A stretch of 64,000 bases of DNA from Haliotis rubra (Eukaryota), in assembly GCF_003918875.1 (NCBI RefSeq), contig NW_025767668.1, positions 1,984,001 through 2,048,000 of the forward strand. Reading direction: 5' to 3'. The notes under the pieces were generated by a model that was not told the origin of the DNA, searched no databases, and was given only the letters and a program-made list of their open reading frames with translations. Shown piece after piece: positions 26,878-61,861 of this stretch. A program made the position numbers and the translations under genes. Position 1 is the first letter of the stretch; the number at the start of each line of letters is the position of its first letter.

Positions 26878-27047
26878 AGTGAGTGAGTGAGTTAGGGTTT
26901 TCACGCGGCTTTTAGCAATATCCCAGTAATATCACAGCAGGGAACACCAGAAATGGGCTTCACACATTGTACCCATGCGTTATATTGAACACTTGTGTTC
27001 CGCATGACAAGCTTAAAGCTTTAACCACTAGGCTACCCCACCACCCC
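26878..27047 (-). mobile_element. SINE family A, minus strand (duplicate at 44418-44588)
   Basis: Reverse complement of family consensus with (GAGT)n tail. Confidence 0.85.
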
Positions 27048-30762: not shown

Positions 30763-30850
30763 GATGTTATACCACTTCCACCCGCGCAACATGAAGATGT
30801 ATCGGTGCCTGACACCAGGATGCAGCCATCATGCCTGGTGTGGCTGACAA
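30763..30850 (+). pseudogene. Duplicate of gene 1 exon 8 (88 vs 90 nt, frameshifted)
   Basis: Matches 11707-11796 with small deletions; same splice sites. Confidence 0.6.
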
Positions 30851-32819: not shown

Positions 32820-33675
32820 TGTCCCATTAATAATGGCAATGGTTTTGTGTATTCCAGAGCAGAGTGAGTTGTATGAAGCCTGTTATCCCATTAATAAAAG
32901 TTGGCAATGGTTTGATTGTATTAAAGGCAGAGTGAGTTGTACTGAAGCCCGATATCCAATTAATAATGGCAGTGGTTTTGTGTATTCAGGGCAGAGAGAG
33001 TTGTATGAAGCCTGATATTGCATTAATAATGGCAATGGTTTAGTGTATTCAGAACAATGGAAAAATACATTATCGATATCCCATTAATAATGGTATAGTT
33101 TTTGATGACGCAACAATTGTATGAAGCCCGTCCTCGTAATAATGGCAAATGGTTAACTGTAATCAGTTCAGGCAAAAGTGTGTTTTATTATGGCAATGGT
33201 TTTGTGGTTCAGCATAGAGTATGAAGCCTGTATATCTAATTAATAATGGCAATGGTTTTGTGTATTCAGCGCAGAGTGAGTTGTACGACGTCTGTTATAC
33301 CATTAATATTGGCAGTGGTTTTGTGTATTCCAGAGCCGAGAGAGTTGTATAAAGCCTGATATCCCATAATCAGTGGCAATGGTTTTGTGTATTCAGAGCA
33401 GAGAGAGTTGTACGACGCCTGATATGGCATTAATAATGGCAATGGTTTTGTGTATTCAGAGCAGAGTGAGTTGTACGACGCCTGATATCCCATAATCAGT
33501 GGCAATGGTTTTGTGTATTCAGAGCAGAGTGAGTTGTATGACGCCTGATATCCCATAATCAGTGACAATGGTTTTGTGTATTCCAGAGCAGAGAGAGTTG
33601 TACGATGCCTGATATCCCATTAATAATGGCAATGGTTTTGTGTATTCCAGAGCAGAGAGAGTTGTACGACGCCTG
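32820..33675 (+). repeat. 63-64-bp acceptor-spanning repeat, copy 2 (shorter)
   Basis: Same unit as 13715-15052. Confidence 0.9.
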
Positions 33676-34026
33676 TGGCAGGAAGTATTTGGAGGATTAC
33701 GACTTGTCACTGGAATATTCATCATTTTCATCGTAGAAGCGCTGAAATTTGTCTTCCACCATGTGGTTCAGCCTATCATCATTGGTCTACTGACTGGTGT
33801 TGGGGACTCCTTACTGAAGCCACTGTTCTCTCTCACCTTCAGCCTCATCCTCCAACCAATCATTGTGTTCTTCTGGAACATCTTGACAGGTGTACGCCAC
33901 CTGTCACAACCTGTGATCGACATTCTTCATGGAGTGCTAACGCCAATTGCAATGGTTTTACGCTCATTCCGTCTTTTTGACGTCACGTATCAAAATTCAT
34001 TGAATCGACCCATTCGTAATGTGTAA
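33651..34026 (+). CDS. Gene 1 terminal exon, intact copy 2: hydrophobic/amphipathic membrane-associated C-terminus
   Basis: Open frame AERVVRRLWQEVFGGLRLVTGIFIIFIVEALKF...RSFRLFDVTYQNSLNRPIRNV*; phase-2 acceptor; with exons 1-8 it sums to 1308 nt = 435 aa + stop. Confidence 0.8.
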
Positions 34027-36832
34027 AGGCAGCATTGACTGTACATTGTATTTGTCTCAAACAGAATGTACCGAATGCATTTTAATCTGGGTTTTGTTTG
34101 TATAGCAATACATCAAAAGAAATACTGACATGCAAGTATTAGGTACTTAATTTATTCGCGATGAACGATTTTATGTTCAAATTATGTGCATAATTATTTG
34201 CTTGTTATATTTGTTCAAATCCACTCTTAAATGTCCTCCAGCAATGCAATTTATATTAAAATATGTCTGTGGTTATATCAGTGTCGTACAATGGTTCTAC
34301 TTTTAATAGATGCTACTCTCCCAAACAGGTGACAGAATCATTAAAGGGGATCTAGACATTGTGAAATTAGCTGTCCTAGCTAATCAGCTGATTTTTGTCG
34401 TTTTTGTTTTATTTGTTTTTAATCGTTTTTAACACAAATGGCTTATTTATAAACTGATATTATTTTGCATTATATAGATCTTCTTCTTGTTTGTCAAATG
34501 GCTACAGCAACAATAATATCCTGAAACAGCTGATTTGTTTCTCACAATTGTTTCAAGCTGTGATAAAGATGTTTGTTATATAAGGGAAAAAATGAGTTTG
34601 TACTGTTACCTGATGCATATATTTTTGACTGTCATATTGAGACATCACAAATTGATGTCTGACAATGCCGTCCATTTTACTGATTCATGTTTATGCTGCT
34701 TCAAAGTAGTGTTACAAAGTTTGGCAATAACCTGACCGGATCACTGCAGGATCTAGCATTACCTTAAACTATCGCAACACGGGGGGGTGGGTAACCTAGT
34801 GGTTAACGCGTCCACTTGTCACACCGAAGACTTAAGTTTGAGTCCCTGCATGAGTACAATGAAGACATCTTCTGGTGATTCTCGAGGAAAATTGGGTAAA
34901 ATTCATCAGTTTGTTCACAACTGGGATTTATGAGTTATTTTTTTTAAATTCAGACCTATTCTATTTTTGCATTCACATTCACTAAAATAAAGAAAAACAA
35001 AGTATTCTTGTTGGGTTATGACTGATACAATGTTAAGTTGATGCAAGTGTCCTCTGTTGGTCATGTTGTCAATGATATACTTGTCATCTGTGCAAAATCC
35101 AAACATAGTTGTATCTATATTGACATGAATTGTGAATTTGGTGTTTCAAATTTAGTTATATTTACTGACATTTTCTGCAAACTTGATCCCACATATCAGC
35201 CTCTGAACATCTCTGGGCGGTGGGGTAGCCTAGTGGTTAAAGTGGTCGCTCATCATGCTGAAGGCCTGGGTTCGATTCCCCACATGGGCACAATGTGTGA
35301 AGCCCATTTCTGGTGTCCCTCGCCGTGATATTGCTGGAATATTGCTAAAAGCGGTGTAAAACTAGACACACTCACTTATTCTGAAATGATGTAGACAAAT
35401 CCCACCGTAGGTTGCATCCCAATGTTCTGTTCCACCAGTCACAAATGTAACGCCAAACATCACTTTGAGATATGTGTCCAGGGCGTTTCCAAAATAATGA
35501 GGACATTTTGTAAGTGATTTGTTATTTCATTTTGATGTTTATAATCATAATTTGTAAATGATTTAATTTATTTGTCTCAAGTTGTTTTATTAATGTTATT
35601 TCATTACATGCATATTGAAATTGTTGATATTTAAGATCCCCAATCCTTTTAAGTAATTTCAGTACTTTATTATGCTCATGTTAAAACTGTTGTGTTTGGC
35701 AATATGTTAATGCATAATGTGTTAAATGAGAATATTTGCTCATTTTATTATTTTACATTGTTTGCGATTGTTTTTAATCTATCTGTCTGACGCATGGTAT
35801 ATGCATGATATGCAAAGTTTGTTTGGAATATTACCATCTGTGTAATCAGTAACTCAGTAAACATAAAACTACTGTGGGTATATATTGCAGTAGCTTTGAT
35901 ATGCAAGTACGCTCAAAGCACTATCATTATTACCACAGTCATTGATCCAGTGTGCACTCAGTACTATTCTCAACTCCCAGGGGAGTATACAAGTTGCCCA
36001 AAGGGAGACAGAAGTTTCACGGGTACAAGACTATATCATCCTATGGATAGGTTCGTATTAAGTAATGACTACCCTTTATCTCTGTATGGTATAAATTGTT
36101 GCCTGCTTCTCCACCTCAACCTGTCAGAATTTATATATACTCCACAAAATTATTTAAGGATCATGCCATGGCAGATTAACCATAGGAATGATTACATCCA
36201 AAGTGTCCCTTAGTATCTCTTGAGTAATATATAACAGTGTGACAATCCCAGTTATGTCTCAGTCACTGACTAGTTGTCAAAAGTTTTAAGCCTGTTGGGT
36301 GAAAAAGCAGAATCTCTAACTTGGGACACATGTTTCTCTGGTTTTATCCTTTACAGATATTGGCTAAATCATTTGGATCATTTGAAAATAATATTATCAG
36401 TGTAGCTCAATATTATATTAAATTGGGAATAAAGTTGTTTGGTTGGGTCAGGTTTATGTAAACACTGTATAAAGTGCATGTATTCACCTTTGGTGGTCAC
36501 ATACAATGTAATTGCAATTATTATTTTAAAAAGTCATTAGTTACTTTAATTTTTTTGTGTTTTTTTATTGCTTTTAGTATTTTTTGATACTTTGAAAGCA
36601 TCAGGAATATTTCATTCATTTTATGATTTTGGTGTTTCTTTTGGTTCCTTTTGGTCAAACTTGAAAATTATGGAATTTTGCCTATCATGGTAGTGTTAGA
36701 TTTATTTAAAATTCTGGTAGATACATGTATATTTAAATCAAATAGTTCCAAATCTTGTCAAGAACTACAAACATACAGCAAGTCAAATACATGAAAAGGT
36801 GCAAGCATCAATGATGTGCATATTGTTATGGA

Positions 36833-36889
36833 ACACACACGTGCGTGCGCGCGCACGCACGCACGCACACGCACACACACACACACACA
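36833..36889 (+). repeat. Compound (GCAC)n/(CA)n microsatellite, present only in copy 2
   Basis: cacacacgtgcgtgcgcgcgcacgcacgcac...cacacac; copy 1 has a short A-run at ~18717. Confidence 0.85.
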
Positions 36890-39800
36890 TCCTGCATATT
36901 AAAAGTTCAAGTATATTTTACTTTTCGTAGCACATCATGTTTTGATATTTTTAAAAAGATCTAGTCATATCATAAGTAGTGCATCAACATGGCTAGATGA
37001 AGTATGATTTAAGTGTAGTTGCATGGTGTTTGGAAATTCATTACAAGTTCAGAGTCATTAAGATGATGTGTAGCAAGTATCGAATAGCTGTAAACCTGGC
37101 TGTGTACAATATACTGTCACACCTTGTCAACACAAGCCTAAACTAACGCTTAGTCCCTGAAATATATATAACTTTGACAGTAACAAATAAACCCATTTAA
37201 ATTGAAAAGGAGCCCCAGTGAGTTGGGAGATTGATATCCAGGCTTGCTTCATTTAGGGCTTTAACACTACAGGGAGGGCTAGGGTGTAGGGGAAATAATG
37301 TGGTTCAGGGACTGTGAGACAGACTAACACAATCCATTTATTCTGTATAGTCAAACACTATTGTGTCAAACATTGAAGTGTCAAATGTACGTTTGTCTCA
37401 AAGTAAAAGGTTGGTCCCTGCGTATTCCTTTATTCCTTTGTGCATTTGTGTCCAAACTCCGATAATTGAATTATTTTGGTCCCTTCAACTCGAACACAGA
37501 GGTTTTTGACTGTATATAATTTAAGACGCAGTCAGGTCCTGGGCAAGATCCTCACTGGCAATATTTGTGCTTGTTATTTGTTTGCATTTTATAATTGTTC
37601 AAGGAAATAAGAGAAAATTAAATGGTCTCAGGTTTCAGCACACAGACAAAATAGACAAACTTCTTCATCAGACATTGTGGTTCAGGATAAGTAAAGTATA
37701 ATTGTTTGGCGCTTCCTACCATGGAAATAAACAGTATTTTAAAGCATTTTAACATATTAGGTGTATATCTATGCAGATTACGTGATGTTGAATTTTTTTG
37801 TATATGTTGTTTATACCACATGATGTTTGTATATCTGACCATTGGCTTAGAAATTTATTTTTTCAGAGACTCGGGGACTACTGGAAAAGTGTTTTTGTAG
37901 TCCTTAGAGATTGTAGCTAATCTTAGGAGCACTATTGTAGCTTTGTGGCTAAAGTTGTAGCTCATCACGCTGAAAAACCGGGTTTGATGGGTACAATATG
38001 TGAAGTCCATTTCTGGTGTCCCCTTCTGTGATATTGCTGGAATATTGCTAAAAGTGGCATAAACATATACTTACTTTAGCTAGTATAATCACTTTTGACT
38101 CTTTTTCCATTTTCTCTCAGTTGTATTCAGTTTTATTAGCAAATATTGAAATATTTATTCGAGTTTATAGCAAAATTGAGAATTGGTGACAGGGAGGACT
38201 GCTGTCTACTGTTAACATTAATGTGCAACAACAGGAGCCATAGCATGTCCAGCAACATCTGCCTCCAAATTTTGAGTATCACTTTTGTTAGTATTTTAAT
38301 GCTGGTGCACAAAGATGCTGGTTATATGAATCAGGAACATTAACTGTAAAATTATGAGTGAATCAAGTGGTTTATGGTATAACTGCAGTCTCTCCTGATT
38401 GTGGTTTCTATTTTATCAACAGTTATTGAAGAAGTGTTGTCAATAGAAACATATAAAAATGTTGAATATATTTCATTGTTTAAGATTGATGAGTTGCCTA
38501 TCAAAGTGCGTGATATTTCTGTCGTACTGTTTCTCAATACGGCTATGATTGTTGTAAGCTTATCTTAAGTCATCAGAGTTATGACAGTGTGGCTTTGTTG
38601 AACAGCGCCCTGTTGACAAACTAGAAATGTTTGTAGAGGAATGAAGTGCACGGGTGAATTTGTATCATTTCCACTTGACAGGCTAGCCCGATGCCGGCAA
38701 CATTCAAGTATTGCCTAGTGTAGACATACTAACTGGCCTGATGCCGGCAACAACCAAGTATTGCCTAGTGTAGACATACTAACTGAAGTTATACTGTAGT
38801 ATACCCATTCACTTAAAAACTTCTTGTTACAAATGTTACGTAAGCTGAACAATGACTTTGGGTGTTTTCCCTTGCATCCCCCTCCCGGAACAACGAAGAA
38901 CATAATACTTCCAAATTAGGACTTGGAAATGCCTTTCTGGTAACCCTGCCTGAAACTTCCTGTCCATCTTCCTGGATACCTGATGACACTTCAGGTCCAT
39001 CAGGCCATCTCTCCAAGTTCAGGAGACATCAGGTCCATTTTTGCCGAGTCTTCAGGTCTACTTACCTTCAAGATCTCAGATCCATCAGTTCCTGAGACTT
39101 CAGGTTTATTTCCCAGGGTTCTACCTGAGACTTCAGGTTTATTTCCCAGGGTTCCACCTGACACTTACGGTTCATTTCCCAGGGTTCCACCTGAGACTTC
39201 AGGTTTATTTCCCAGGGTTCCACCTGACACTTCAGGTTTATTTCCCAGTGTTCCACCAGGTTTATTTCCCAGGGTTCCACCTGAGACTTCAGGTTAATTT
39301 CCCAGGGTTCCACCTGAGACTTCAGGTTTATTTCCCAGGGTTCCACCTGAGACTTCAGGTTTATTTCCCAGGGTTCCACCAGGTTTATTTCCCAGGGTTC
39401 CACCTGACACTTCAGGGTCATCCTGTCAAGTTCATGTGTTATGAGATTATGAGATCATTGTACTAAATATGACCCTCATGTTTGTTATATTGATTAGATA
39501 TTCTCTTCCGTCCAATGTTTACAAACCTGTTTGTGCTTACTGTGACATTTCCATTGTATTTTTGTAAATAAACTACATATTATAATTTAACACAATGACA
39601 TGTTTTTATTCATATTCCGACATGTCACAGACCAGGTGGAAAAAATGGGCAATTATATTTTCTTCATATTCTCCAGCATACCAATCACACCCACAATATT
39701 TGTTTGTTGTTTAACAGTGCATCCGGTAATTTTTTATATGGCAGTGATCTGTAAATAGACATGTATAGACCAGACAATCCAGTGATTGACACGAGCATTG

Positions 39801-41272
39801 ATCCACACAGTTGAAATTAAATGACATGCATCAACCAAGTAAGCGAGCCTGACCTCACGATCCTGTTAGTTGCCTCTAAAACTGTGAGGGATGAAAATTT
39901 TCTGCGGATCCGCGGAATTCCGAGAATTTCATAAGGCCAAGGACCATTTTTGTCAATCGTCTAAATCCATATAATTTGGCCTCGATTTGGCCCCCGGCTA
40001 GTTTTCAGGTGGCCCCCGGCTAGTTTTCGGAGTTTTTCTCAAAACTTTATTCTCATCCCTGCTTACAACAAGCATGAGTTTCTAAAGACCAATTGTGAAT
40101 GGAATCACTACGGTAATGCTTGATAAAGGTACTAGCATCTGTGTTGCAACAACACCAGTTGTAATCCCTAATTCAACTCAATCTTCAATGTGTTGGAATC
40201 TGAATGTTTCTATGGTATTTGGAGAAACTTCTGTTTTGAACATTTGGTTCTAATTGGTCTCGAACAGGAATTAAGGAAGTTAAAAATTGTCACATGTGCC
40301 ACATATTTCAGCCATTTTGAGTCAAGGACTGAACCAGGGCAACTATCTACATAACAGAGATATTGAACGACCTCTGTGATGGATGTTCTAGCGTGTCAAC
40401 ACTGCTACATCAATACTTGCCTTTCTCATAATAACCTGGATCTATCTTGCAGTTGATGTGAAATAAAGTTTAATGTCACATTCAAGGTTTATTGCACTTA
40501 TATAGGAATGTCCATGCATGAGTTACTGCTTGTACTGCTACAGACTAATGCCAGTTTGATAGTGCGAGCCCAATGAGACACGATGTTGGAGACACAGTCT
40601 CCTGACTCAGAACCAACCAGTCCTTGTTCAGTCCCTTCAGCGATGACAGCCAGGAATTTAATTATCGACTTTGGTTCTCAGAGCAAGCCGTTTCATTGCA
40701 GAATGAATCTGATAAAGATTATCTTTCAAATAGGAAGGCTTTACCTGGTAAAAGGTTTTCAAAATTGAATGCGAGGACAATATTTTCTCAAAATTGTAAA
40801 TATCCGTCATGAATATATATATGAAACTTGTTCAATGAATCTAAAAAATATAATAGTTTAAAGAATGACAAACTATGAAAAGGAACTGGTTCAACACTAG
40901 ACCTTTCAATGAACCAAATTTGATGAAGAAATATTGTATGGTTTTCAGAAATGCTACGAAATACATCTTGCATGGACAGATGTGTCGATAAAAGACTGGA
41001 AAACTGTAGAATGCGTGCTTTAGCTTGTCACAAATATTCCTGTTCTATTGGGCGGTGGTTTAGCCTAGTGGTTAAAGCGTCCGCTATCAAATCATGCACT
41101 GAAGACCCGGCTTGAATCCCCCACATGGGTACAATGTGTGAAGCCCATTTCAGGTGTCCCCGCCATGATAATGCTGGAAAATTGCTAAAGCTGGCGTAAA
41201 ATCAAACTCACTCGCTCCTGTTCTGTTAATTATAGAATGTCTTTTGACGTCAGCTGATCATGTAGTTATATA

Positions 41273-41432
41273 CTGAGGGGAAAAAATAAAGGGATCACAT
41301 GAGAAGCACAAGTGTTCCTTTATTTTTTTTCCAGGTTTCTTCACAAGGGTTGTCATCGCATTGTGTGAAGGAACCTGGAAAAAAATAAAGGAACACTTGT
41401 GCTTTCATGTGATCCCTTATTTTTTCCCTCAG
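41273..41432. mobile_element. Palindromic MITE (internally deleted version at ~23221-23321)
   Basis: ~70-bp inverted arms ctgagggg...ccctcag flanked by TA. Confidence 0.75.
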
Positions 41433-41934
41433 TATATATTGGAACTACTAAATATAAGATATAAATTTGTTGATATTTATATTAGTTATTTTGACAGTTA
41501 TATATTTTAATTATCTTCATCTTCAATGTCAGCTAAACATGGACAGATGGGTCAACGTGTGTGCTGGAAATACTTCCTGATACAAATCCATTTAGACTGA
41601 ATACAATGAGAAAGAGAATGATGGTAGGGTTAGTCATGTGATCTTTGCACACAGGGACTAATCACAGTGGTGCTGACCCATTGTCTAAATGGGGACCATG
41701 GTATTGTGGGTGTTTGGCCAATTGTTTTGTTTTGTCGCTAAAACTTAGTTCTAAGGCATTTCAGCACAAGGATCAAAGAAAAGTAAAGAAATGCTTAGCA
41801 TGAGATAGGATAATTTTAAAAACATAACAATAAATATAGCCAAAGTGACACAGTGGTTGTCCATGCTAGATAAGGACAGATCATGTGAGATGATCCTGAA
41901 CACAAGACAAACATTAACTATGAATGAAACATAT

Positions 41935-41940
41935 TTTATT
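41935..41940 (-). terminator. Candidate polyadenylation signal (AATAAA) for IFTAP
   Basis: tttatt on + strand ~80 nt past the stop; also present in the duplicate near 24720. Confidence 0.4.
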
Positions 41941-42016
41941 TAGGATGTATACATGATTTTTCTGTTTTTACATGAATATTTACACACTTATTGCAAATTT
42001 TCGTCAGCCTTAGACA

Positions 42017-42154
42017 TCAGCTGGGTTTACTATCTGCGGGTATGAAAGATTGTAGATGTTGCCATTCCTGAGGTGTAAACTTGGGAGTCAGTTTCACATT
42101 GTCGTAGTCAAAGTCCTCGTCTAAACAGAAGGCCTCCACCTGGTCAGAACACAC
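42017..42154 (-). CDS. IFTAP: IFTAP terminal exon
   Basis: VCSDQVEAFCLDEDFDYDNVKLTPKFTPQEW...PS*; F-x-LDE-x-FDYDNV-x-LT-x-KF is the hallmark IFTAP/C11orf74 C-terminal motif. Confidence 0.9.
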   Translation of the reverse strand: MCSDQVEAFCLDEDFDYDNVKLTPKFTPQEWQHLQSFIPADSKPS

Positions 42155-43671
42155 CTGCCAAAGTCAAACATGTTCATTCACTATGATTCAGACATTTAAC
42201 ACTATGTATATTTTAAACAAAATCAACTAAATTTCTGTTGTGTTTATTAAAATAAAAATCTAGCAATTTGCATGAACACTCTGTAAATCTGCATAACAGA
42301 TATATGCAGTGTGCTCACAGGATTGTAGATTTACTCCATAAATGCAAAAATATAATGACCTCAATTTATATTTAAAAAATGCCTGAAAAATAACTTGTCG
42401 GACTGCTTATCTAATTGATGAAATAAAAACATGGACAAAACTACAAAACCATTGACATCATTCAGTGCTATAACCCAAGACAAGCTGCATCAACCAATCA
42501 GAAAAGAGTAGGGAGCGTTTGTTTGTTTAAGAAAACATAAACACAGGAAATTGCTTGGTTAGTCAATGGAAAACTACAAAACCTTTCATCATATTTTTAA
42601 TGTAAACACACCCTGTTTTAAACATTCCAAATGTTGCCAGCTCTGAACAATCACTACTGTTGTTTCTCACAAACTGTAGGGCTTAGTAATAATTATTGAA
42701 AACATCTGATCATGGTTACCATGGTTACCGAATGACAAATGAAGCATGAATCAGCATATGGTGTTATTTCATCAAATGAAAAAAACGAGACAATACTAAG
42801 AAAACAAGAAACAATTTAACAGCCTTCCAGCTTCTAACAGCTGTTTACTGACTCAGAAAGACATAAAAATATAGCCAAGATGCAGCAGTCTAAGTAAACT
42901 TAGGCTCAGAATTATTCTATAAGTATAACGAATAATAGTGAGCCTAAGTTTACTTAGACTGAGACAAGAAGTCAATAAGCTTGTTTAAAGAAAAGTTTTA
43001 TGTCGATGTCCGACTGAATCAAGAGAGTCTACTCATTTCAGTTGCAGAGATTTAGGCTGGCAACAGAGCAACAGCCACTAACAGGCAAGCCGACTAACTT
43101 GATCGAGTGTTCAGGCTCGCTGACTCGGGTTATGCATGTCATTGTATCCCAATTGTATTGATGCTCATGACACCTATCACTGGATTGTCTGGTCCAGACT
43201 CATTTGTTTAGAGACTGCCATCATATAGCTGGAATATTGCAGAGTGTGGCATTAAACAACAAACAAACAAAAACATGACATGACAACCTGCATGGCGCTG
43301 AAATGCTATCACTGGTGGACGAACTAGGAGGAGGAAGAGCAACAGTGTCCGTTTCGTTTGACTCCAGTATGTTGCTAAATGTCGTACACTAACAACTTGT
43401 GTATACAAGGATAAGAAACTCTTTACAGAACACTTATATCTGTGTCAAGAGACAGACGTAATTCCTGCTTCAGACACAACATTCAATTATTCGACTAATT
43501 TAAAGTATCTATCTCACCGACAAGTATTGTTGATCTGCCATCTTGCTTTACAGTAATGAAACAACAATGTTACCAAAAATAAGTCAGATCACAGGAGATG
43601 TATGCTGCACAGAGTCATGAGGTCGACCCATTATTATTTAACTCAAAAAGTGTACTTTACCAGAGTATAAA

Positions 43672-43990
43672 GTACATTATTACTCGCCCGTGGAAGATAC
43701 TGCAGTGTGATATTTTTACGGCAATATTACACTAGTGTAATACCGCTAGACGTATGACGTCATACAGCTTGACTCGCGGAAAGCTGAGAGTCATCACACT
43801 ACGTAGGCAGTTTCTATCAATTTATGTTGGAGAGTAATAAACAGAATACTAAACTCACTTCCGTGAAATACCATTTTTATTAAACTCGTGAAAGATTTAG
43901 TATCAAACTCGCTTTCGTTCATATGATATCAAATCATTAACTCGTTTAATAAAAATAGTATTACACGGAAGGTCGTTTAGTATCCACTTT
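43672..43990. mobile_element. Copy-2-specific insertion with a long terminal hairpin
   Basis: Absent at ~26462; arms atactaaac..ttccgtg..tttttattaaac / gtttaataaaaa..cacggaag..gtttagtat. Confidence 0.65.
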
Positions 43991-44626
43991 GTAATAGTAA
44001 TAGTCCGCTTATATGGCGCCCATATCCAGGCACATTGCCTTCTCACGGCGCTACGTACATTACTATCCCTGGTCATAGGACACTATCGTACTTTCCAATA
44101 CTTTTTCAACTCCCTGGGGATCATACAGCAATGTTGCCTATTAGGCGCAATGAACTTAACACTCACATTGCCAGCAAATCCTCACGGGTACCCATTTTAC
44201 AGCTGAGTGAACTGAGACAATGTGGATCTAAGTATCTTGTCCAAGGACACAACGCAAATGTGCCCACTTTGGGACCCAAACCTAGATGCCTTTGGTCTTT
44301 CAGGGAAGCATCTTAGAATCCCTGACATATAAACTGAGTCTAGTGAACCCCATCTTGAATCCCAAAGAACCCATCAGAAAAAACCCTGAATGATTAAGAT
44401 CATCAAATGTAAAATCAGTGAGTGAGTGAGTTTTGGTATTACGCCGCTTTTAGCAATATTCCAGTAATATCACAGCAAAAGGGCACCAGAAATGGTTTTC
44501 ACACATTGTACCCATGCGTTATATTGAACGCTTGTGTTCCGCATGACAAGCAAACGCTTTAACCACTAGGCTACCCAACCACCACCCCAAATGTAACATG
44601 ACAGGAAAAGGAAAGAATGCAGTTAC

Positions 44627-44931
44627 CTGATCCTCGGACTGCGGTGTGTTCTCACTGCTGGTTTTCCGAGTCGTGGCTAAGTCAAGACTTGTAACCTGAA
44701 GCAGTTCTAACTCTGTAGGAACATTCTCCGGAGGAACCTCGACCTCTCCAGGGTTAAGATGAGCAGCAACATCATCATCATCATCATCTACACAGTCCGC
44801 ATCATACTGCTGGTCCACTAACATACTCAGGTCACACTCTGTAGCTTGCTGTGTTGCATGGGGCAACTGCTGTTCTTTTATCAAAAACTCTTCCTTGGGC
44901 TGAGTTATCTCCCCTTCAGTTACAGATTTAC
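44627..44931 (-). CDS. IFTAP: IFTAP exon 5
   Basis: GKSVTEGEITQPKEEFLIKEQQ...HLNPGEVEVPP...PQSEDQ; contains conserved PGEVE motif; phase 1->0. Confidence 0.8.
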
Positions 44932-45913
44932 CTGAGTGTTACGCAGAAAGAATTTCAGATATTAACCATGCCATCAGCAGGGATTTACATGGAGTCCTGT
45001 ATTTGTGGGTCCCTGGGGCATATACTTAATTTTCAGGGGTCCTGGACAACAAAATGAGGGTCCCAGACACTTAAAATATTATTATTAATACTGTTGTTGT
45101 ATTGTGTATCATGATCATAACATTGTTACAGTAATTAAATAATACCATAACCCAGCTAGTAGCAGACTCAGTGATAACTTATTGTCACTTTATTGGAGTT
45201 TTTACAAAAAGTATTTGGACTTTTTCAGCGTCCCTGTGGACGCGCTAATAAATTTTGTTGCATCCATTGTCAAATTTTATGCGTATAGGACGCAGGATTT
45301 CGCGTCCTGTTAATCCCTGCATCAGTGACCAAGTTCCTCCAATAAAATAATCTATAAGATAAGACACAGTTGACGAATATTTCACAACTGATTTATTCAA
45401 TACAAATCTCTCAACATTTACAATAGATTTGGAAGAATTAATAGCAGTATGGGAAACTGTTCGATTGGCATTTGTTGATAAAGGCAAGATATAAGGATGA
45501 CTTAATTCTTCTTAATTCTACTATGACGTGATGTTTAGGTATAGATCATTACACTTTGTCAAGCAAGCGAGTGAGTGAGCGAGTTGGATTTTACACCGTT
45601 TTTAGCAATATTCCAGCACATTGTACCAATGTGGGGAATCGAACCCGGGCCTCAAGAGTGAAGTAAGACAGAACAGTACAGACTTATAAACATTTAACAT
45701 AGTTGTTGTTAATCCCTCTCATGCATACCCTTATGATGTTTTTGTGAACCCTAGTAGATGTACATAAGTGTGAGCTGTGCTCGAGTATTTCATTCCATAA
45801 GTCTATAATTCACCTCGATGTATTCTTTATGCATGGCTTCAAAACAAGGCATTTCCCTTGATAATCTATCAATGAATATGGCAGGGGTGATCATATGAAT
45901 ATATCCCATTTAC

Positions 45914-46010
45914 CTGTCTCAGAAAAGCTTGCACTGTATCCTCCACCTGATAAATCATCATCATCATCATCATCGCCATCACTACCAGCATCATCAACAA
46001 AGTTGTCAAA
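45914..46010 (-). CDS. IFTAP: IFTAP exon 4
   Basis: FDNFVDDAGSDGDDD...SFSET (cf. vertebrate VDNFLD motif); AG acceptor, CAG|GTAAAT donor; phase 0->1. Confidence 0.75.
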
Positions 46011-46774
46011 CTGCAATATAACATTTCACAAACCTATCTCTTTGAACAAAACATGAGCACAAGAGTTTTTCACATAGTGATAAAAACTTTCTCTTTGACA
46101 TGTAAATTAATAGAAGATTCACAAATAATGAGAAACTGATCACATGGTATACACAATTATTAGAAACACTGATGTGATGATACTGTTATGTACCAGTGAG
46201 AATCCTACATCAATAGATATGTAGCTGGAGATCCACAAATAACAGTTGTCCTAAATATCTTAAACCCTTCATACCCTACATTAAAACTAGACAAACTGAA
46301 ATCACTGGGCTGTGAATTTGGTGTAATTATAAAACTGAATATTGCAAGTTAAGTTACTGCACCAAATGTTCATTACAATATCACTTCTAGAAACTGAAAA
46401 AAAAACAACCTAAGCCTAACACTTAATACTATTTCATGATTTTGTTTGTCCGTTGTTTAATGCCACACTCAGCAGTATTCCAGCACCTTGTCCATAAGTA
46501 ATTGAGTTCGGACCAGACAATTCAGTGATTGACACCATGAGCACGGATCTACACAATTTGGTTGCAATGACATGTGTCAACCAAGTGAGTGTGTCTGAGC
46601 ATTTGATCCTGTTAGTCGCCTCTTACGACATGCATGGGTTGCTGAAGATCAATTCTAACCCGGATCTTCACAGGTATACTATATAAATGTATGACTAGGT
46701 AAATACATCATGTAGTTCAAATGCAATTATCAGATTAGCTTATCACATCATGCAATACTGAAGAGGATAGATAC

Positions 46775-46849
46775 TTTTCTCTGTGGACGGCTGCCACGGT
46801 GAACGGCTCCATCAGTCATCGTGCCAGACTTGGTTCCTTCATCTAGAGC
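46775..46849 (-). CDS. IFTAP: IFTAP exon 3
   Basis: gttgcAG acceptor, GT donor; ALDEGTKSGTMTDGAVHRGSRPQRK; 75 nt, phase 0->0; conserved in duplicate 29275-29349. Confidence 0.7.
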
Positions 46850-48242
46850 CTGCAACAAAGCAGTGTCATCACATCACAAAATCTACAGTGTAAATCTTGC
46901 ATTGACTCCCAGGAAACCTATGTATGTATTGTTTCTTAAAAATTTATTTTCAGGAAATTTGAATGTGATCTTTTTACTGTCTACAGAACTATACATCAAT
47001 CAAGCAATTGCAGAGAATTTAACAGTTTAACAATTTAATAGGGCAATATTTTGTGTGTAGTAAGTTTGTATTAACGTGCCAGTAGGGGTAATTCAATTGT
47101 CATTGCTTATCAGTACAATGTTTGCATATGGTTGCGGTCTGTAAATAATCAAGTTTGAACCAGACAATCCAGTGATTAATATGGATATAGATATATTCTA
47201 CAGTATTATAAACATGTTTTAAGCTAGTCCAGATATAATAGCTTCCAACCTCCAACTGTAACAGGGAGGCATAATACACTGTACTGTAATAGACTCTGTT
47301 TATATTGCTTTCTAAGATGCCTAGCGGTTAGAAGAATCGAAAAAAAAATACATTATCAGACAATAAAGGTACAGTTTTTTGATGACGTAACAATTGAATG
47401 ACATTATCCCGTCACCGCACCATTCTAGTGTGCCCCCTCGTAATCGAACCATTTTACATTACGTCACAATGTAAGCGACGTCACGATGCATGTCAGTTGT
47501 CATCGCCTCATACGGCCTCCTACAGTAAACTACACCGTTGCATCCAGCGTCCTCGTGCTTTAACTATAATAGTTCAGGGCAAAGGTGTGTTTTATTACAC
47601 TATACATGGTGGTAGAGCGAAGTGTATTTCTTAAATACCAGTAGTTGAAGAGGAATACCATTTAATTGTCAATGTTTAAAAAATGCATAAGATAGAATGT
47701 TTTCCACCTTACCTATATATTGGTAATCCGTGTAAAGATGGTCTTGTTAGACTTGTGTCATCTAAGGATGATGTTTTGATAAGTATTGCTACTTTTTCTT
47801 TAGAAGGGTATGTTATGCCTGTACATTGTGCAAAAATGGTTCCATAGCTTTCAGAGGCAATAATGTGTGATTATTAGTGGTTTTACCAGCATCAAACAAA
47901 ATGTAAAATTATTCTGTAATGTGGGCCATGGCCTTGTATACTGAAATAAAACTGTCTGTCTGACATCAGGAGCATCAACTGCCACAGCAGGGATACAAAG
48001 ACATGTGCCAACCAAGTCAGCAAGTCATTCGATCTTGTTAGTCGTCTCTTACAACAAGCATGGGTTGCTGAAGACCTATGACCACAGGGATCTTCACAGG
48101 TTTGATCCCTTGAGTATGAGTATACCAAGATTCTGAGTTAACTTTACTCTCCACCAACAAAGACATCTGAATGTAGTGGTGGATGTCAGATTCCAGACTC
48201 TGCTGGATGGCATCAGTTGATTACACTGTTTCTTCCTCTCAC

Positions 48243-48405
48243 CTGTTCTTCTATACCATCATCATCTGTCTGTGTATCATGTCTGTGTGAAGGAGTTGCC
48301 TCGTTATCTCCTGTGCTGTGGAGAGACAGACAGGTTTCTCCTTACTGTTGACAACAGGAGAGACAGTTGCTTTATTTTTCTTGGATTCAGCTTCCAGTAC
48401 ATGAT
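48243..48405 (-). CDS. IFTAP: IFTAP exon 2 (1 nt short; probable sequencing indel)
   Basis: ttgcAG acceptor, CAG|GTGAGA donor; starts DHVLEAESK and ends DDDGIEEQ in another frame; 163 nt where 164 would be needed. Confidence 0.65.
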
Positions 48406-48464
48406 CTGCAATATATTGACATCATCATCACCACAGGTTTTCACTTCAAAAGTATGTTACATTA

Positions 48465-48878
48465 TGTAGCGGCCATAAAATTTAGGAGTCCCGTGCTGGG
48501 ACTCGAACCACGGACCTTCTGATCCGAAGTCGGACGCCTTGTCCACATGACCAAAGAGGTTAACCCCATCAGCAAGCTGACAAGGTAAGGATGTCATCTG
48601 TGGGATGACTCCACGCCCTGCTACATACTCCCCCATCAACAGAAGGCATAGTTGGGTACTGAGACTTATTTTGCTCAAATTTCATATGAACGTGCTTAGC
48701 CCCACGTTGGGCCCCAATGTAGCGGCCCTAAAATTTCCGAGTCCCGTGCTGGGATTCGAACCATGGACCTTCTGATCTGAAGTCGGACACCTTGTCCACA
48801 TGACCAAAGAGGTTAGCCCCGTCAGCAAGCTGACAAGGTAAGGATGTCATCTGTGGGATGACACCACGCCCTGCTACA
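48465..48878 (-). mobile_element. Miniature non-autonomous LTR retrotransposon (TRIM) with tRNA-derived LTRs
   Basis: Two 161-bp LTRs (48465-48625, 48718-48878), TGTAGC...GCTACA ends; ATTA TSD; PBS TGGGGCCCAACGTGGGGC; PPT GATGGGGGAGTA. Confidence 0.9.
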
Positions 48879-48940
48879 ATTACATGAAAATCACTGTTTG
48901 GTATGGACATTAACCATACAGTGCTAGTCCAAGACTAGTT

Positions 48941-49137
48941 CCCAGATAGCATCCGGACGTTGGTTCCAACGTTGGCAATGTTGGCAAAACCATTGCCAAC
49001 GTTAGGCTAACGTCTGAATGCTATCTGGGTTAAAGTCTCAAAAGGCTCAACCCAGATAGCATTCAGGCGTTATTCAACGTTGGCAATTGTTTTGCCAACA
49101 TTGCCAACGTTGGGCCAACGTCCGAATGCTATCTGGG
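48941..49137. mobile_element. Two ~88-bp palindromic MITE-like units in inverted orientation
   Basis: Each unit runs CCCAGATAGCAT...ATGCTATCTGGG (48941-49029, 49051-49137). Confidence 0.75.
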
Positions 49138-49548
49138 AAGGGGCTTGTTGTATGTATTATACTGGCTACTGTTCTGAAGTGAGCTGTGGACTAAATGGAT
49201 TAGATTAGGTTTCTGGGAGTGGCATATTTTCAAATTCAGATCTGAATGTATTTAACACTGGCTTGGTGAAAGCAGTTGTATGAATAATGCCCTTCCAAAC
49301 ATGTCGATTTAGTCAACTGATGCAGCTGTTTACAGTGAAGTATCCAACTACCACCTATAATTCATCATTCATGCTGATTTACATACTTTATCACACTACT
49401 GCTTTGGACATATTGTCTTGACACAGGCTTGTAACTGTTTTGTTTTCGTTTTTTCATTACAAACCCATGTGTGACTATGTGTCTCTCTCACATTCAGTAA
49501 TAATTTTAACAGACTGTTCCAAAACAATATTTAACTGGAAATAATTAC

Positions 49549-49690
49549 CCATCGTGAGATAGGTGAACGATTTGACCAGCGATTCTGTGGTCTCTTGAGA
49601 TTTGTTCACGAAGCCGTCAATCACCTGCCGAATCCCCTCGTCAATATTTTGATTGATTGCATTTTGTCGTTCAGGGCTTGGCTCATTCAT
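49549..49690 (-). CDS. IFTAP: IFTAP (C11orf74/NWC) exon 1
   Basis: MNEPS...IRQVIDGFVNKSQETTESLVKSFTYLTM resembles the vertebrate IFTAP N-terminal helix (IKDVLDKFLNCHEQTY..FLNTFTHL, from memory); G|GTAATT donor. Confidence 0.8.
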
Positions 49691-49859
49691 ATTCGGGCTT
49701 TATTTATTAGCCTTCTTTTTTCATACAGTTTTACACATCTGTCGGTGACAACACTTCTACGTATGCATTCAGATTTTACACATCTAAAACATGTGACCGA
49801 ACGGATAAAGTAACATGCACTAAAAGTATAATTCTTGCTTGCCAGTTTTCAATGCGTCT

Positions 49860-49935
49860 TTGACGACGGGCGGAAGAAGGAATGTTCACCCGGAAGAGGT
49901 TAAAAAGTTGAATCCACGTACGGATCGGGATTAGG
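49860..49935. promoter_or_regulatory. Probable IFTAP promoter region
   Basis: CpG-richer patch ~170-240 nt upstream of the ATG with two CGGAAG (ETS-type) motifs. Confidence 0.4.
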
Positions 49936-51353
49936 TTAACTTTCTTAGATTTTAATCAAGATTGTGTATTGCATTCAGACATCCGTATGCTGAGTTCTGT
50001 AGGGGCGGCGGGGAAGCCTACTCAGTTGTGGTTACATCGTTCCCTTGTCACGCCCAAGACCCGGGTTCGATTCCCCACATGGGTACAATCATATATTTAT
50101 AAGCATGACTCTGATCTTATATATATAGGCATGACTATATATCTTACAAAATGTATGTATGATTCGCACTGAAAACACTTACCAGGCATATCTGTACTCA
50201 GGGACCGTTCATAATTTATGGCTCGGGGAGGTGATTATGATTTTAGAAAAAAAAAAAAGTGGGGTGGTGGTGTGTGTGTTGTTGTTCTGGGGAGGTAGGG
50301 TGGTCATCAATTTTGTACACGTTTCTAAAGTGGTATTGTGGGGGTCAGCAATTTTTTCATAACAATAATATTTAAAATTATGCTTAAAGATATTGGAAGG
50401 GGGGGTCATTGATATTGTACATGACATGCAGGGGTTGTCACTTACTTTGTACATAAAATGGGGAGAGAAAGGTTGTCAAAATTTCTTATGAGAAGGTCTG
50501 ACCAAATAAATACACCTGCCGATTGTGCCATTGTTGATCTGTTGTTATATAAAATGTGAGTAAAATGTCATTTTTCATCACTTAATTGTCAACCATGGAA
50601 AGTTTAGCCAAATCCATTCAAGATATGAAGGTCTTGAAAAGCCCGATTGGCTTGTTAATCTGTTGTTACATAATATGATTACCAGGAAATCGTGGGTAAA
50701 ATTCATTATTCGGTTACATAATATGGGGCTTAAATAACGGAGTATGGTAATCAGTACGGTAATCAGTGTAGTGTAACATATGTTGGGATTACATTCTTAG
50801 TAACACAGATTCTAGTACTCGTGTTGGTTTGAGTCCCATCCGGGATTCGAACCCACACCCTCAGTCGTAACAATGTGGTGTTGTCGACAAGAACCCGCCT
50901 GAGTGGGACGCTGCTGTATGCCGACACAAGGTAGACCGAGTGTTGAGCTTCATCTGCAGGGTAAACAGAAGCCCCGCAACACAGGGGAGCGGAGTGCACA
51001 TCCAGATAGACAATATTGAGTTACATTTCATTCCTGTAGATAACGACTGGAATGTGAATTTACTTACGTCAGAAAAACCCTGGAAAACAGGTGAAACTAT
51101 CTCAGGAGACAGAAACCTCTGCAGCTCAATAACAGCTCAGGCCCGGATACCGAGGTCAACAACGGAAGGTAGAATACATGTAACTATGTATTTGTTATCA
51201 AGGAAGCCACATTTTTCATTTTCTCAGGAAACGGGTAATTCATAGAGCTCGGGATTACGGAATATGTTCCTCATGATTAATTCCTCGAACAAGTTACAAA
51301 GTCAATGGAATTTATTATTTTGGGATCGACAATGCCCATATATAGAGTAAGGG

Positions 51354-59103: not shown

Positions 59104-60059
59104 TTATTGAACATTGTTCTGTGAATAGTTTTGTAAATACCATTCATGATCTTCGGGCTGCAAGCACCATGGGGTTGACTTGACATCACACGTTAATTTC
59201 ACATTTAGTATGGTCACTGGAGCATTGTCTATAGTCAGTTCTCTTCTACTGGCGATGTTATATTCAACTGTTGACATCCCAGTCTCCCTGTCCAGCCTTC
59301 TTGTCTTGTTCCGTTGGTCAAAGTAACGCTTGTTATCCCTGGGCCTTCTCTTCCTGTCATGGACATGTCGGAAGGTTTTGTTTCCTGTCGTTATATTTTG
59401 AGGTCTTTGAACAATAATCCCAGCTTTCCTCATTCTAACGTAGAATTCATCATCCTCACGACCCCAACCCCAGTATCGGTTTGACAAACCATTCAGCAAT
59501 TTGAAATCGGATGATTTCAGGAGAAGTATTCCCCTACGAATGTTTTATAGTGATATAGAGGATGGAGATTAGGTGCAGCAATATGAAAAGGTCCGTTTTC
59601 TGGATAGGAATAGCTGAGAGCTGGGTTTAGAGGCAAAAGATCCACATCATGCATGGCAATATAATCAGACACTTCACTGCTTTCACGAAAACCAACATTT
59701 ATAAGAGATGCTCGGTTGAACCTAAAATTATCAACCTGGTTCACAGCATAAATCTTGTGACGAACGTTTTGATTGTTAAGAAATGAATGCATGTGAGGTA
59801 CAAATTCCATCAATTCTTCAAACCTGTCTCTCAGAGGCACAACAACTGCCAGGGTGTGGTTGGATTTGTACCGGTCAACTGTAGCTGGTGTCTGGACAGT
59901 TCGAACATCCGTCTGCACGGAGTCGCTTTCTTTGGGTGGGCATTGGCACTGTGTAGAATCTGGTAACGGATATCGGGCAAGGTAGAGACAAAACACCAGC
60001 GTCAGAGCCAAGCACACTAGAAGAATGTGCGAGGTTGATAACCGCCTCCTGTTGGCCAT
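59104..60059 (-). CDS. B4GALT7: Beta-1,4-galactosyltransferase 7 (xylosylprotein 4-beta-galactosyltransferase); single coding exon; 1-nt frameshift at G-run 59531-59534
   Basis: Type II TM anchor; motifs [58 protein letters not shown]; one added G restores GGILLL and a 318-aa ORF. Confidence 0.93.
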
Positions 60060-60927
60060 CCATCAAGTTTAAAACAAAAGTCAACAAATTATACGGAATC
60101 CCGTAGCTGAGCGGCGTGTGTTCTTGTGAGAGACAAGGGGCTACTGTTCAGCTCAACTCCAAACCGACAAACGTCATCATTTCGGACTTCTGACATATGG
60201 CTCACACATGGGCTGGTCGACTACGAATTGAATGCTACCGAGTGTAACGTACCAGGAAGGTTGATGGCAAGCAGGGGAAGGCGATTCTGTCCCGACAATC
60301 TCCGTCAGCTATATGACACATGTAGCCACACAAAATGTCTCTGGAAACGCCTTTTTTCATGTTTTCGATACGACCACTGACTGTGCCTCTCCCAAAAAAA
60401 TTGACTGACCCATGACAGGTCGTACTCGGCTCTCAACAGCCAAACCACAACAAACGTGCTGCGGTGGAGTTTACGTACTTAAATTGCGGAATGGGTTGAC
60501 CAAATACGAAAATAGAGTCAACCTGAAACAGCATTGCACATTCTACTTGGAGTGTTTGCAAATCTCCTCATCTTATTTGGAGATTTTATTATCTGGAGAT
60601 TACCAAAATCGTAAAACATGCTTTGTATGTCTGTAACATTGTTAAATCAGGCATGCAGCTATCTATCAGAAAGTGCTTCGTCTGATACGGATTCAGCATG
60701 ACAGCATTAAATGACCGACATCTTTTACAATAAAACAACCGTTCATGTACCGTATTAATTAGTGCCAGTCTTAAAATATAGAGATCTAAATAGATAATGC
60801 TTCAATCTACTCGGATAATACTCTCATCTATGTAGATGATACATATATTTACATAAATAATAATTGCTTCTGAGTAAAAGATACAGACTACATCTATGCA
60901 GATGATACTTAAATTACGTATATGATA

Positions 60928-61495: not shown

Positions 61496-61861
61496 ATGAG
61501 CTATGACCGGAACATTCAATAAAATAACTCTTCGTTTAATGTGTCGAAGTTTTGTTAAATGAGTTGGTATGAGTTTTTATTTTCATTTTAACGCTGATAC
61601 ATGAAATGGTTTCAGTTGTGAAAATTAAATACAAAAAGGCCAAATGAAAATACATGACCAACATACTGCCAAACAAATTATATATCATCCTGGAAATGTT
61701 TTTTATCCAATGTTTGTTGGAACTGCACCCATCTAGGGTGTAACTTCATAGCGCCAATAACCGTCTTAGTAACAATACGCACGATTATAATATCATATAT
61801 GGAGATGAATGCAACTTCTACGTAGACGAAATTATTATCAATGTAGATGAATTTATAAATC

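What the first reader, a model, noticed from the sequence alone, without database searches (positions are those of the whole stretch)
48465..48878. Complete 414-bp TRIM whose LTRs embed a tRNA-Arg(TCG)-derived Pol III promoter
Seen: 161-bp LTRs with TGTAGC/GCTACA ends, a 4-bp ATTA TSD and only 92 bp of internal sequence. The PBS (48699-48716) matches the tRNA-Lys(CUU) PBS TGGCGCCCAACGTGGGGC at 17/18, and a PPT abuts the other LTR. In the element's sense orientation the left LTR reads TGGTCATGTGGACAAGGCGTCCGACTTCGGATCAGAAGGTCCGTGGTTCGAGTCCC (A box, TCG anticodon arm, B box); the right LTR is a slightly diverged copy. Known analogues: plant Cassandra TRIMs carry 5S rRNA in their LTRs, and I recall tRNA-bearing 'Helenus' elements being described. 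This family may be uncatalogued.
Basis: partly seen in the sequence, partly recalled or inferred. Interest (0 to 1): 0.7.

Follow-up and report, generated by a model that had tools for sequence, protein, structure and literature searches.

The report
Abalone tRNA-bearing mini retrotransposon (Helenus)
This is one worn copy of a small, gene-less jumping element that has spread to hundreds of places in an abalone genome and carries a tRNA look-alike in each end repeat; it belongs to the Helenus type described in 2024, is likely transcribed by RNA polymerase III and likely copied by a Gypsy retrotransposon of the same genome, and the first 49 bases of its end repeat also occur as tandem arrays at scattered sites.

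Summary
Confirmed. 48465-48878 (sense on the minus strand) is a TRIM: 161-bp LTRs (10 differences), tRNA-Lys(CUU) PBS, PPT and ATTA TSD. It belongs to a dispersed family: 377 exact LTR-motif and 85 internal-motif hits, exact 4-bp TSDs in 35 of 49 paired copies, solo LTRs, and an empty site in a related organism. Typical copies are 428 bp; this one has a private 14-bp deletion. The LTR core matches a host tRNA-Arg(UCG) gene at 28 of 31 nt, but the cloverleaf is broken and the anticodon varies, so it is likely a promoter, not a tRNA. This is Helenus (Kojima 2024). The host is an abalone, and that paper lists no gastropod. A PNMA-gag Gypsy family with the same LTR-end/PBS junction and 4-bp TSDs is the likely helper. 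Pol III transcription was not shown. Extra: LTR bases 1-49 form tandem arrays (739 exact junctions), some inside TSD-flanked solo LTRs. The scan has noted Helenus-type elements in other genomes, but not this sequence. New member of a known kind.

The parts
48461..48464 (.). Target-site duplication, left copy (ATTA)
   Evidence: the contig of organism D that lacks the element stops matching at 48464
48465..48625 (-). 3' LTR, 161 bp, TG...CA ends
48477..48480 (-). T4 run of the 3' LTR (LTR 146-149), candidate Pol III terminator (inferred); the only run of 4 or more T in each LTR
48488..48560 (-). tRNA-Arg(UCG)-derived segment of the 3' LTR (A box 48543-48553, anticodon TCG 48525-48527, B box 48499-48509)
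   Evidence: 28 of 31 nt identical to host tRNA-Arg gene L041 in the core; coordinates
48568..48581 (-). Short inverted repeat upstream of the A box (LTR 45-58)
   Evidence: sequence; folds; similar hairpins seen by eye in bivalve, nemertean and fish Helenus LTRs
48577..48625 (-). LTR head (bases 1-49), the unit of dispersed 49-bp tandem arrays elsewhere in the genome; single here
48626..48637 (-). Polypurine tract abutting the 3' LTR
48626..48717 (-). Internal region, 92 bp (105-107 bp in most copies; 14-bp deletion at the TGC at 48646-48648)
48699..48716 (-). Primer-binding site for tRNA-Lys(CUU), 17 of 18 in this copy
48718..48878 (-). 5' LTR, 161 bp (A box 48796-48806, anticodon position reads TCA at 48778-48780, B box 48752-48762, T4 48730-48733)
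48879..48882 (.). Target-site duplication, right copy (ATTA)

Best explanation
The stretch is an aged copy of a non-coding LTR retrotransposon of the Helenus type that has inserted at many sites with 4-bp duplications; it is likely transcribed by RNA polymerase III from the tRNA-Arg-derived A and B boxes in its 5' LTR, likely primed by host tRNA-Lys(CUU), and likely reverse-transcribed and integrated in trans by a Gypsy element. Shown: structure, dispersion, TSDs, solo LTRs, three-LTR tandems, an empty orthologous site, the match of the PBS to host tRNA-Lys genes, the tRNA-Arg source, loss of the cloverleaf, and a resident Gypsy family with the same primer junction and TSD length. Inferred: Pol III would start just upstream of the A box (about LTR 50-66). 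It would read through the single T4 run of the 5' LTR part of the time and stop at the T4 of the 3' LTR; that a T4 next to AA is a weak terminator is recalled knowledge, not tested. The Gypsy family found is the best candidate helper, not a proven one. This copy is probably no longer mobile (6% LTR divergence, a PBS mismatch, and a deletion that removes a motif shared with other animal Helenus).
For: Family and TSDs: (exact 4-bp TSD in 35 of 49 paired and 7 of 16 solo copies with clean ends; 5-bp in 1 of 65). Target preference typical of an integrase: T at -2 in 61 of 82 half-sites, pyrimidine at the first TSD base in 65 of 82. Empty site: one contig of organism D runs from 48464 to 49138 with about 73 letters in place of 673. 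Primer: 97 matches to the tRNA-Lys 3' end, all with the common PBS sequence; 11 of 11 ARAGORN calls in three of these loci are tRNA-Lys(CTT). tRNA-Arg source. Not a tRNA: stems pair 4/7, 3/4, 4/5, 3/5 against 7/7, 4/4, 5/5, 5/5 in the gene; anticodon TCG in only 54 of 100 LTRs. Variants shared by both LTRs of a copy (inherited): 0 in the B box, 2 singletons in the A box, 36 occurrences of 9 alleles in the anticodon arm. Helper: 18 of 23 other hits to the 18-nt PBS are one Gypsy family with PNMA gag, RT, RNase H and integrase in Gypsy order, LTR pairs mostly 95-99.8% identical, the same 23-nt LTR-end/PBS junction in 13 of 13 loci, and 4-bp TSDs.
Against: No direct evidence of transcription. Small-RNA runs of a related organism gave 0, 8 and 6 reads from 17-22 million each, on both strands, with no shared start; contigs of a guessed RNA run covered the LTRs but not 48638-48700. 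The excess of inherited variants outside the A/B boxes is not significant when alleles are counted (2 vs 35 private against 9 vs 66, p=0.33; against the rest of the LTR p=0.76). It is significant only when occurrences are counted (p=2e-4), and these are not independent. The T4 lies in both LTRs, so full-length RNA needs read-through. The Gypsy family shares no DNA with the TRIM beyond the 23-nt junction, its half-site profile has less C at +1 (21 of 82 against 58 of 128), and Gypsy families with a shorter Lys PBS were not searched. In six internal regions (five distinct insertions) the PBS has AC for GT, for which no tRNA gene was found.
Confidence: 0.85

Rival explanations
1. An ordinary Pol II-driven or read-through TRIM in which the tRNA-derived segment is a passenger left by an old SINE or tRNA insertion.
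For: No Pol III transcript was seen. The allele-level test for A/B-box constraint is not significant. A T4 in the 5' LTR could stop Pol III before the PBS.
Against: The B box is intact and has no inherited variant in 50 elements while the anticodon arm has many. A and B boxes are the conserved part across Helenus families (PMC10886601). Only about 65 bp lie upstream of the tRNA-like part.
Confidence: 0.1
2. The LTRs are functional tRNA-Arg genes spread by the element.
For: The anticodon loop is nearly identical to the host gene (28 of 31). The commonest inherited anticodon change, TCG to TCT (both LTRs in 9 elements), still reads Arg.
Against: Acceptor and T stems are broken (4/7, 3/5). Rfam gives 18.6 bits against 29. 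Default ARAGORN makes no call. Four of nine possible single changes of TCG keep Arg, so TCT is not telling.
Confidence: 0.02
3. A retrozyme-like element whose RNA is cut to unit length by a ribozyme in the LTR and copied from a circle.
For: Three-LTR tandems occur (6 of 125 loci). There is a sharp, recurrent boundary at LTR 49/50. Earlier scan notes describe tRNA-plus-twister LTRs in other genomes (unchecked).
Against: Rfam finds no ribozyme at E<=10 on an intact copy or at E<=1 in window 46000-51000. The predicted transcript folds only slightly better than shuffles (z -2.2, 3 of 100). Tandems are common in ordinary TRIMs (PMC13570524, PMC7215508).
Confidence: 0.02
4. A local duplication of a tRNA-derived SINE, or an assembly artefact.
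For: The assembly looks error-prone (frameshift in B4GALT7 near 59530; broken Gypsy frames).
Against: Hundreds of copies with the same termini and different TSDs. The family is held in runs of eight coded organisms. An empty site exists.
Confidence: 0.01

Closest known systems
Helenus TRIMs (TRIMp3), Kojima 2024, PMC10886601; bivalve families with a tRNA-Lys PBS such as Helenus-1_PiIm, Helenus-1_CGi, Helenus-2_CVi, Helenus-3_SaGl, Helenus-3_CGi
   Same: Size (bivalve families 325-580 bp), two LTRs with tRNA-like A and B boxes, tRNA-Lys PBS, PPT, 4-bp TSD, solo LTRs and tandems, proposed Gypsy helper. Short motifs are shared: 'gggttaacc' occurs in 3 oyster families, 'ctctttgg' and 'atcagaaggt' once each (both in Helenus-1_PiIm), 'gggggagta' 12 times in the supplement. 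A hairpin before the A box and a CG-GGACG-like motif before the PPT recur by eye.
   Different: The host is a gastropod; Table S1 lists molluscs only from Pteriomorphia bivalves. Two motifs from this element's D and anticodon arms have 0 hits in the supplement (line breaks can hide a match). The source tRNA is still recognisable (Arg-UCG), and the PBS pairs over the full 18 nt where the bivalve Lys families in Fig. S2 pair over roughly 10-15. Arrays of the LTR head are not mentioned in the paper's main text. No alignment to the published consensus sequences was run, so relatedness to a given family rests on motifs.
Cassandra (plants) and Ajax (nemerteans)
   Same: TRIM with a small-RNA-derived Pol III promoter in the LTR; tandem arrays of LTR plus internal region (PMC7215508).
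   Different: 5S rRNA-derived rather than tRNA-derived. Ajax makes 5-bp TSDs. Cassandra is the only one with shown Pol III transcripts (as stated in PMC10886601; the original paper was not held).
biv-TRIM (Satovic et al. 2019, PMC6934838)
   Same: TRIM in molluscs.
   Different: No canonical PBS; tRNA similarity lies in the inner domain, not the LTR; the word gastropod does not occur in the text (passages only).
tRNA-Arg-headed mollusc SINEs (MESC Lsa_1 head; PMC4758252)
   Same: A tRNA-Arg-derived head is reported for a gastropod SINE and could be a donor under the 'SINE into LTR' origin model.
   Different: Non-LTR elements without PBS, PPT or fixed 4-bp TSD. No sequence comparison was made (passages only).

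Membership tests
Helenus (TRIMp3) | TRIM under 1 kb with two LTRs and no coding capacity | tested here: met
   414 bp here, about 428 bp typical. One frame is open across copy L002, but in only 9 of 44 two-LTR copies, and 633 of 5000 shuffles have an open frame.
Helenus (TRIMp3) | tRNA-derived sequence with A and B boxes inside the LTR | tested here: met
   28 of 31 nt core and 46 of 73 overall identity to host tRNA-Arg(TCG) gene L041; Rfam tRNA model positions 8-63 at 18.6 bits.
Helenus (TRIMp3) | PBS complementary to the 3' end of a host tRNA other than the LTR's own tRNA-like part | tested here: met
   tRNA-Lys(CTT) genes; exact 18 nt in 19 of 56 internal regions, most others 1-2 changes.
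Helenus (TRIMp3) | PPT before the 3' LTR | tested here: met
Helenus (animal families) | 4-bp TSD | tested here: met
   Exact 4 bp in 35 of 49 paired and 7 of 16 solo copies; 5 bp in 1 of 65.
Helenus (animal families) | Gypsy element with the same primer as putative helper | tested here: met
   PNMA-gag Gypsy family with the same 23-nt junction and 4-bp TSDs. As in the paper, this shows a candidate, not mobilisation.
Helenus (TRIMp3) | Transcription by RNA polymerase III (untested for Helenus in the paper too) | tested here: inconclusive
   14 small-RNA reads in three runs, no shared start; constraint on boxes suggestive only.
Named Helenus family in Repbase or Dfam | Identity to a catalogued consensus | not testable with these tools
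   No Repbase or Dfam access. Motif searches of the whole supplement and reading of parts 1, 5, 6, 7, 10 and 11 of 11 showed no close match.
Functional tRNA gene | Intact cloverleaf above tRNA thresholds | tested here: not met
Retrozyme | Self-cleaving ribozyme in the LTR | tested here: not met
   No ribozyme family in Rfam matches at E<=10; an undescribed fold is not excluded.
Cassandra / Ajax | 5S rRNA-derived sequence in the LTR | tested here: not met
   Only the tRNA model matches.

The most novel reading that the evidence does not exclude
The fixed unit of the tandem arrays (LTR bases 1-49) marks the U3/R boundary, that is, the Pol III start 23 nt upstream of the A box. Reverse transcriptase would re-copy U3 by jumping at that boundary, giving (U3)n-R-U5 insertions with normal TSDs that then expand in place. 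This Helenus family would thus be a recurrent, dispersed source of a 49-bp minisatellite in abalones, and the arrays would give the first sequence-level map of a Helenus transcription start. The motifs shared with oyster, scallop, nemertean and coelacanth families would also point to one old animal Helenus lineage rather than separate origins.
Probability: 0.25. Interest if true: 0.6.

Novelty: new member of a known kind. Interest (0 to 1): 0.38.

Why it matters
It extends Helenus from bivalves to gastropods, which bears on whether molluscan Helenus is older than the more than 470 million years proposed for Pteriomorphia or arose again. It is a convenient system for the two open points about Helenus, Pol III transcription and the identity of the helper: the source tRNA, the primer tRNA, young copies (LTR pairs with 0-1 differences) and a young candidate Gypsy are all in one genome. 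It also warns that relaxed tRNA scans in abalone will report false Arg genes. The 49-bp arrays link a TRIM LTR to a minisatellite whose junctions (739) outnumber the exact LTR-motif hits (377).

Tried and rejected
Empty site in the window: an 18-kb tandem duplication (about 11.3-30.4 kb against 30.4-47.9 kb) ends about 600 bp before the element, so there is none. A second primer tRNA for the AC variant of the PBS: 0 matches, and all 97 tRNA-Lys 3' ends carry the common form; it is treated as a subfamily mutation. A longer PBS (22 nt) in other elements: 0 matches. A genome-wide Rfam tRNA search scored only 63 of 321,282 candidates and returned SINE-like heads, so it was of no use. Small-RNA and RNA contigs: no start or end mapped, no verdict. 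Coding potential: chance level. Ribozyme: none. Neighbouring ORF 50871-51242: no homologue among longer proteins and no Pfam match, so a host gene around the insertion was not identified. A formal site-by-site test of TRIM against Gypsy target sites was not made; only the half-site tallies are available, and they include a few flanks that are PBS variants. Self-insertion as the seed of the 49-bp arrays: LTR 46-49 ranks 4th of 152 positions as a target, so it is plausible, but 0 of 125 loci show the nested intermediate; unresolved. One search used a start coordinate 2 bases off for its LTR comparison; one search replaces it. Literature: five searches ran; none listed a gastropod Helenus or arrays of a TRIM LTR head, but only the top 15-25 rows of each were seen. 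The original Cassandra paper was not held.

Full report
1. Observation. The element occupies 48465-48878 and reads on the minus strand. The two LTRs are 161 bp with 10 mismatches, the internal part is 92 bp, and ATTA is duplicated on both sides. The PBS at 48699-48716 differs at one base from the complement of host tRNA-Lys(CUU) plus CCA, and a purine tract abuts the left (3') LTR.

2. It is a dispersed family. A genome search gave 1576 first-look candidates; 40 were scored and gave 43 matches, 42 of them near full length at 86-100%, the window's own copy included. Exact motifs give lower bounds: 377 hits for a 22-nt LTR motif, 432 for the first 24 nt and 85 for a 20-nt internal motif, with 0 for each reversed control. 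Of 125 distinct loci, I dropped 48 with an incomplete LTR end and 12 that run on into internal sequence. Of the remaining 65, 35 of 49 paired copies and 7 of 16 solo LTRs have an exact 4-bp TSD, 11 more have one mismatch, and one has a 5-bp match; the 35 show 27 different TSDs, and two of them are one duplicated locus. Six of 125 loci have three LTRs. Among 44 loci picked by LTR motif, 26 lack an internal region. Typical copies are about 428 bp; the window copy has lost 14 internal bases between two TGC triplets. LTR pairs differ at 0-17 sites (median 4.4%, 50 elements), so the family has young members and the window copy (6.2%) is older than the median. Assembly errors probably inflate these figures. 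Insertion sites are palindromically biased: in 82 half-sites from 41 sites, T at -2 in 61, A/T at -3 in 68, G at -1 in 41, and a pyrimidine at the first TSD base in 65.

3. Host and distribution. An intronless B4GALT7 at 59104-60062 is 86% identical over the query to a Haliotis cracherodii protein; the next mollusc hit is 58%. The host is therefore an abalone, a gastropod. Twenty of 24 listed runs hold part of the element, from eight coded organisms and one marine metagenome with a small share. In organism D one 1217-nt contig matches 48262-48464 and then 49138-49500 with about 73 letters between, so it lacks this element and the neighbouring palindromic element: an empty orthologous site, seen in one contig.

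4. The tRNA-like part. A pattern search gave 3 matches: one genuine tRNA-Arg(TCG) gene (L041) and two family copies. The window's 3' LTR matches the gene at 28 of 31 nt from the D arm through the anticodon arm. A young copy matches at 46 of 73 overall, and its stems pair 4/7, 3/4, 4/5 and 3/5 against full pairing in the gene. The anticodon is TCG in 54 and TCT in 26 of 100 LTRs. Differences shared by both LTRs of a copy passed through transposition: there are none in the B box, two singletons in the A box, and 36 occurrences of 9 alleles in the anticodon arm. This fits a promoter kept and a tRNA fold abandoned. The test is not significant per allele (p=0.33) and only looks strong per occurrence (p=2e-4), where subfamily members are not independent. 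RNA data do not help: 0, 8 and 6 small-RNA reads in three runs of a related organism, on both strands, and RNA-guess contigs that cover LTRs but not 48638-48700.

5. Primer and helper. The genome has 97 matches to the tRNA-Lys 3' end, nearly all in tandem arrays and all with the common PBS sequence. A search for the 18-nt PBS with other downstream letters gave 23 hits: 4 TRIM copies, one antisense tRNA-Lys copy, and 18 copies of one autonomous-type family. Two copies scanned carry PNMA gag, RT and integrase domains, with RNase H between them detected in one, in Gypsy order; relatives are Gypsy polyproteins. The LTRs are mostly about 1.92-1.93 kb, and 12 solo-LTR rows (11 distinct) show an exact 4-bp TSD (read by eye). 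LTR pairs were 95-99.8% identical in 11 of 13 loci, 87% in one and absent in one. The only DNA shared with the TRIM is the 23-nt LTR-end/PBS junction, in 13 of 13 loci. Half-site tallies are alike (pyrimidine at the TSD base next to the element: 71 of 82 Gypsy, 97 of 128 TRIM; A at +2: 44 of 82 and 83 of 128) but differ at +1 (C: 21 of 82 and 58 of 128). No formal comparison was made. Pol frames are interrupted in the copies examined; decay and assembly error cannot be told apart here. The family is a candidate helper; other Gypsy families with a shorter Lys PBS were not searched.

6. Mechanism. Shown: integration products with TG...CA ends and 4-bp TSDs, a PBS for an abundant host tRNA, a PPT, solo LTRs and tandems. 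Inferred: TFIIIC binds the A and B boxes of the 5' LTR and Pol III starts just upstream. The only T4 of each LTR lies after the B box, so the RNA would have to read through it once and stop at the second; its AA context would make it leaky (recalled knowledge). The RNA would be packaged by a Gypsy Gag, primed by tRNA-Lys(CUU), and integrated by the Gypsy integrase. The window copy is probably dead.

7. An unexpected by-product. Contigs of four organisms show a joint from 48625 back to 48577 (13, 11, 8 and 14 contigs), that is, head-to-tail repeats of LTR bases 1-49. The junction 20-mer has 739 exact matches here, control 0. The first 100 matches fall at 12 loci, and I examined all 12. Five end in the rest of the LTR (50-161), none has an internal region, two have exact TSDs around the whole array plus LTR (about 27 units in L319, 2 units in L320), and one has a TSD with one mismatch. 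The commonest period is 49 in 11 of 11 arrays measured, and several arrays have their own fixed changes, so expansion happened in place after insertion. The seed is unexplained. Its boundary may be the U3/R border re-copied during reverse transcription; or it may come from self-insertion at LTR 46-49, which ranks 4th of 152 positions as a target although no nested intermediate was seen in 125 loci; or it may go back to a single old variant LTR. The 639 unlisted matches were not examined.

8. Comparison with what is known. I read the whole main text of Kojima 2024 (PMC10886601) and parts 1, 5, 6, 7, 10 and 11 of 11 of its supplement, with two motif searches over all of it. Helenus is defined as a TRIM with a tRNA-like sequence in the LTR, PBS and PPT, and 4-bp TSDs in animals; all are met. 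The paper states that Pol III activity is unvalidated. Its molluscan families are all from Pteriomorphia bivalves; 'Haliotis' and 'Gastropoda' do not occur in the supplement. Short motifs link this LTR to oyster and pearl-oyster families, which hints at shared ancestry, but no alignment was run. For PMC6934838, PMC12859917, PMC4758252, PMC7215508 and PMC13570524 I saw passages only and no supplements. Five literature searches (listings only) showed no gastropod Helenus; Repbase and Dfam could not be searched and may hold the family under another name. Earlier scan notes report Helenus-type elements in other genomes (81 findings hold the search words), none with this sequence and none in this genome.

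9. Verdict. A real TRIM and a new member of a known kind: a Helenus family in a gastropod, with an identifiable source tRNA, primer and candidate helper, and with a minisatellite made from its LTR head. Interest 0.38.

Noticed in passing
L319:1-2201 (G000:C392), L320, L369-L378; unit = window 48577-48625: Dispersed tandem arrays of LTR bases 1-49 (2 to at least 99 units), some followed by the rest of the LTR and flanked by a TSD; 739 exact junctions in the genome; the joint is also seen in contigs of four organisms.
   Followed up: partly
L323 and L324 (G000:C337): A lone LTR 1-49 piece with 4-bp flanks that differ at one base, in a duplicated region.
   Followed up: no
window 48939-49139: Palindromic element of about 200 bp (MITE-like), highly repeated in sequencing runs and missing, with the TRIM, from the organism D contig.
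   Followed up: no
window 11332-30394 and 30389-47872: Tandem segmental duplication of about 18 kb at 84-95% identity, with an exon-like ORF at 33613-34026.
   Followed up: no
window 59104-60062, minus strand: Intronless B4GALT7 with a frameshift near 59530, possibly an assembly error; used to place the host.
   Followed up: partly
window 61700-64000; 9950-11800; 850-921: 82-bp satellite; 27-30-bp minisatellite; an ARAGORN tRNA-Glu(CTC) call that may be a SINE head.
   Followed up: no
window 48000-48110: Fragment of a very abundant repeat, by depth in four runs.
   Followed up: no
G000:C2098:1021659-1048991 and C692:22607-28030: Tandem arrays of tRNA-Lys(CTT) genes with a period of about 300 bp, about 87 matches in one array.
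   Followed up: partly
L131:1500-1560 (G000:C2413): A long antisense copy of tRNA-Lys with CCA, followed by Gypsy pol-like sequence; it looks like over-copied primer tRNA.
   Followed up: no
L177-L189, L231-L288: Young PNMA-gag Gypsy family with LTRs of about 1.9 kb, a Lys PBS and 4-bp TSDs; 82 LTR-end motif hits, control 2.
   Followed up: partly
L003:1490-2004: A young TRIM copy inserted into an older LTR of the same family at LTR 37-40.
   Followed up: partly
L004, L007, L008, L019, L029 (PBS): Subfamily with AC for GT in the PBS; no matching tRNA gene was found. Garbled PBS sequences also recur in several TRIM and Gypsy copies, possibly base-calling errors.
   Followed up: partly
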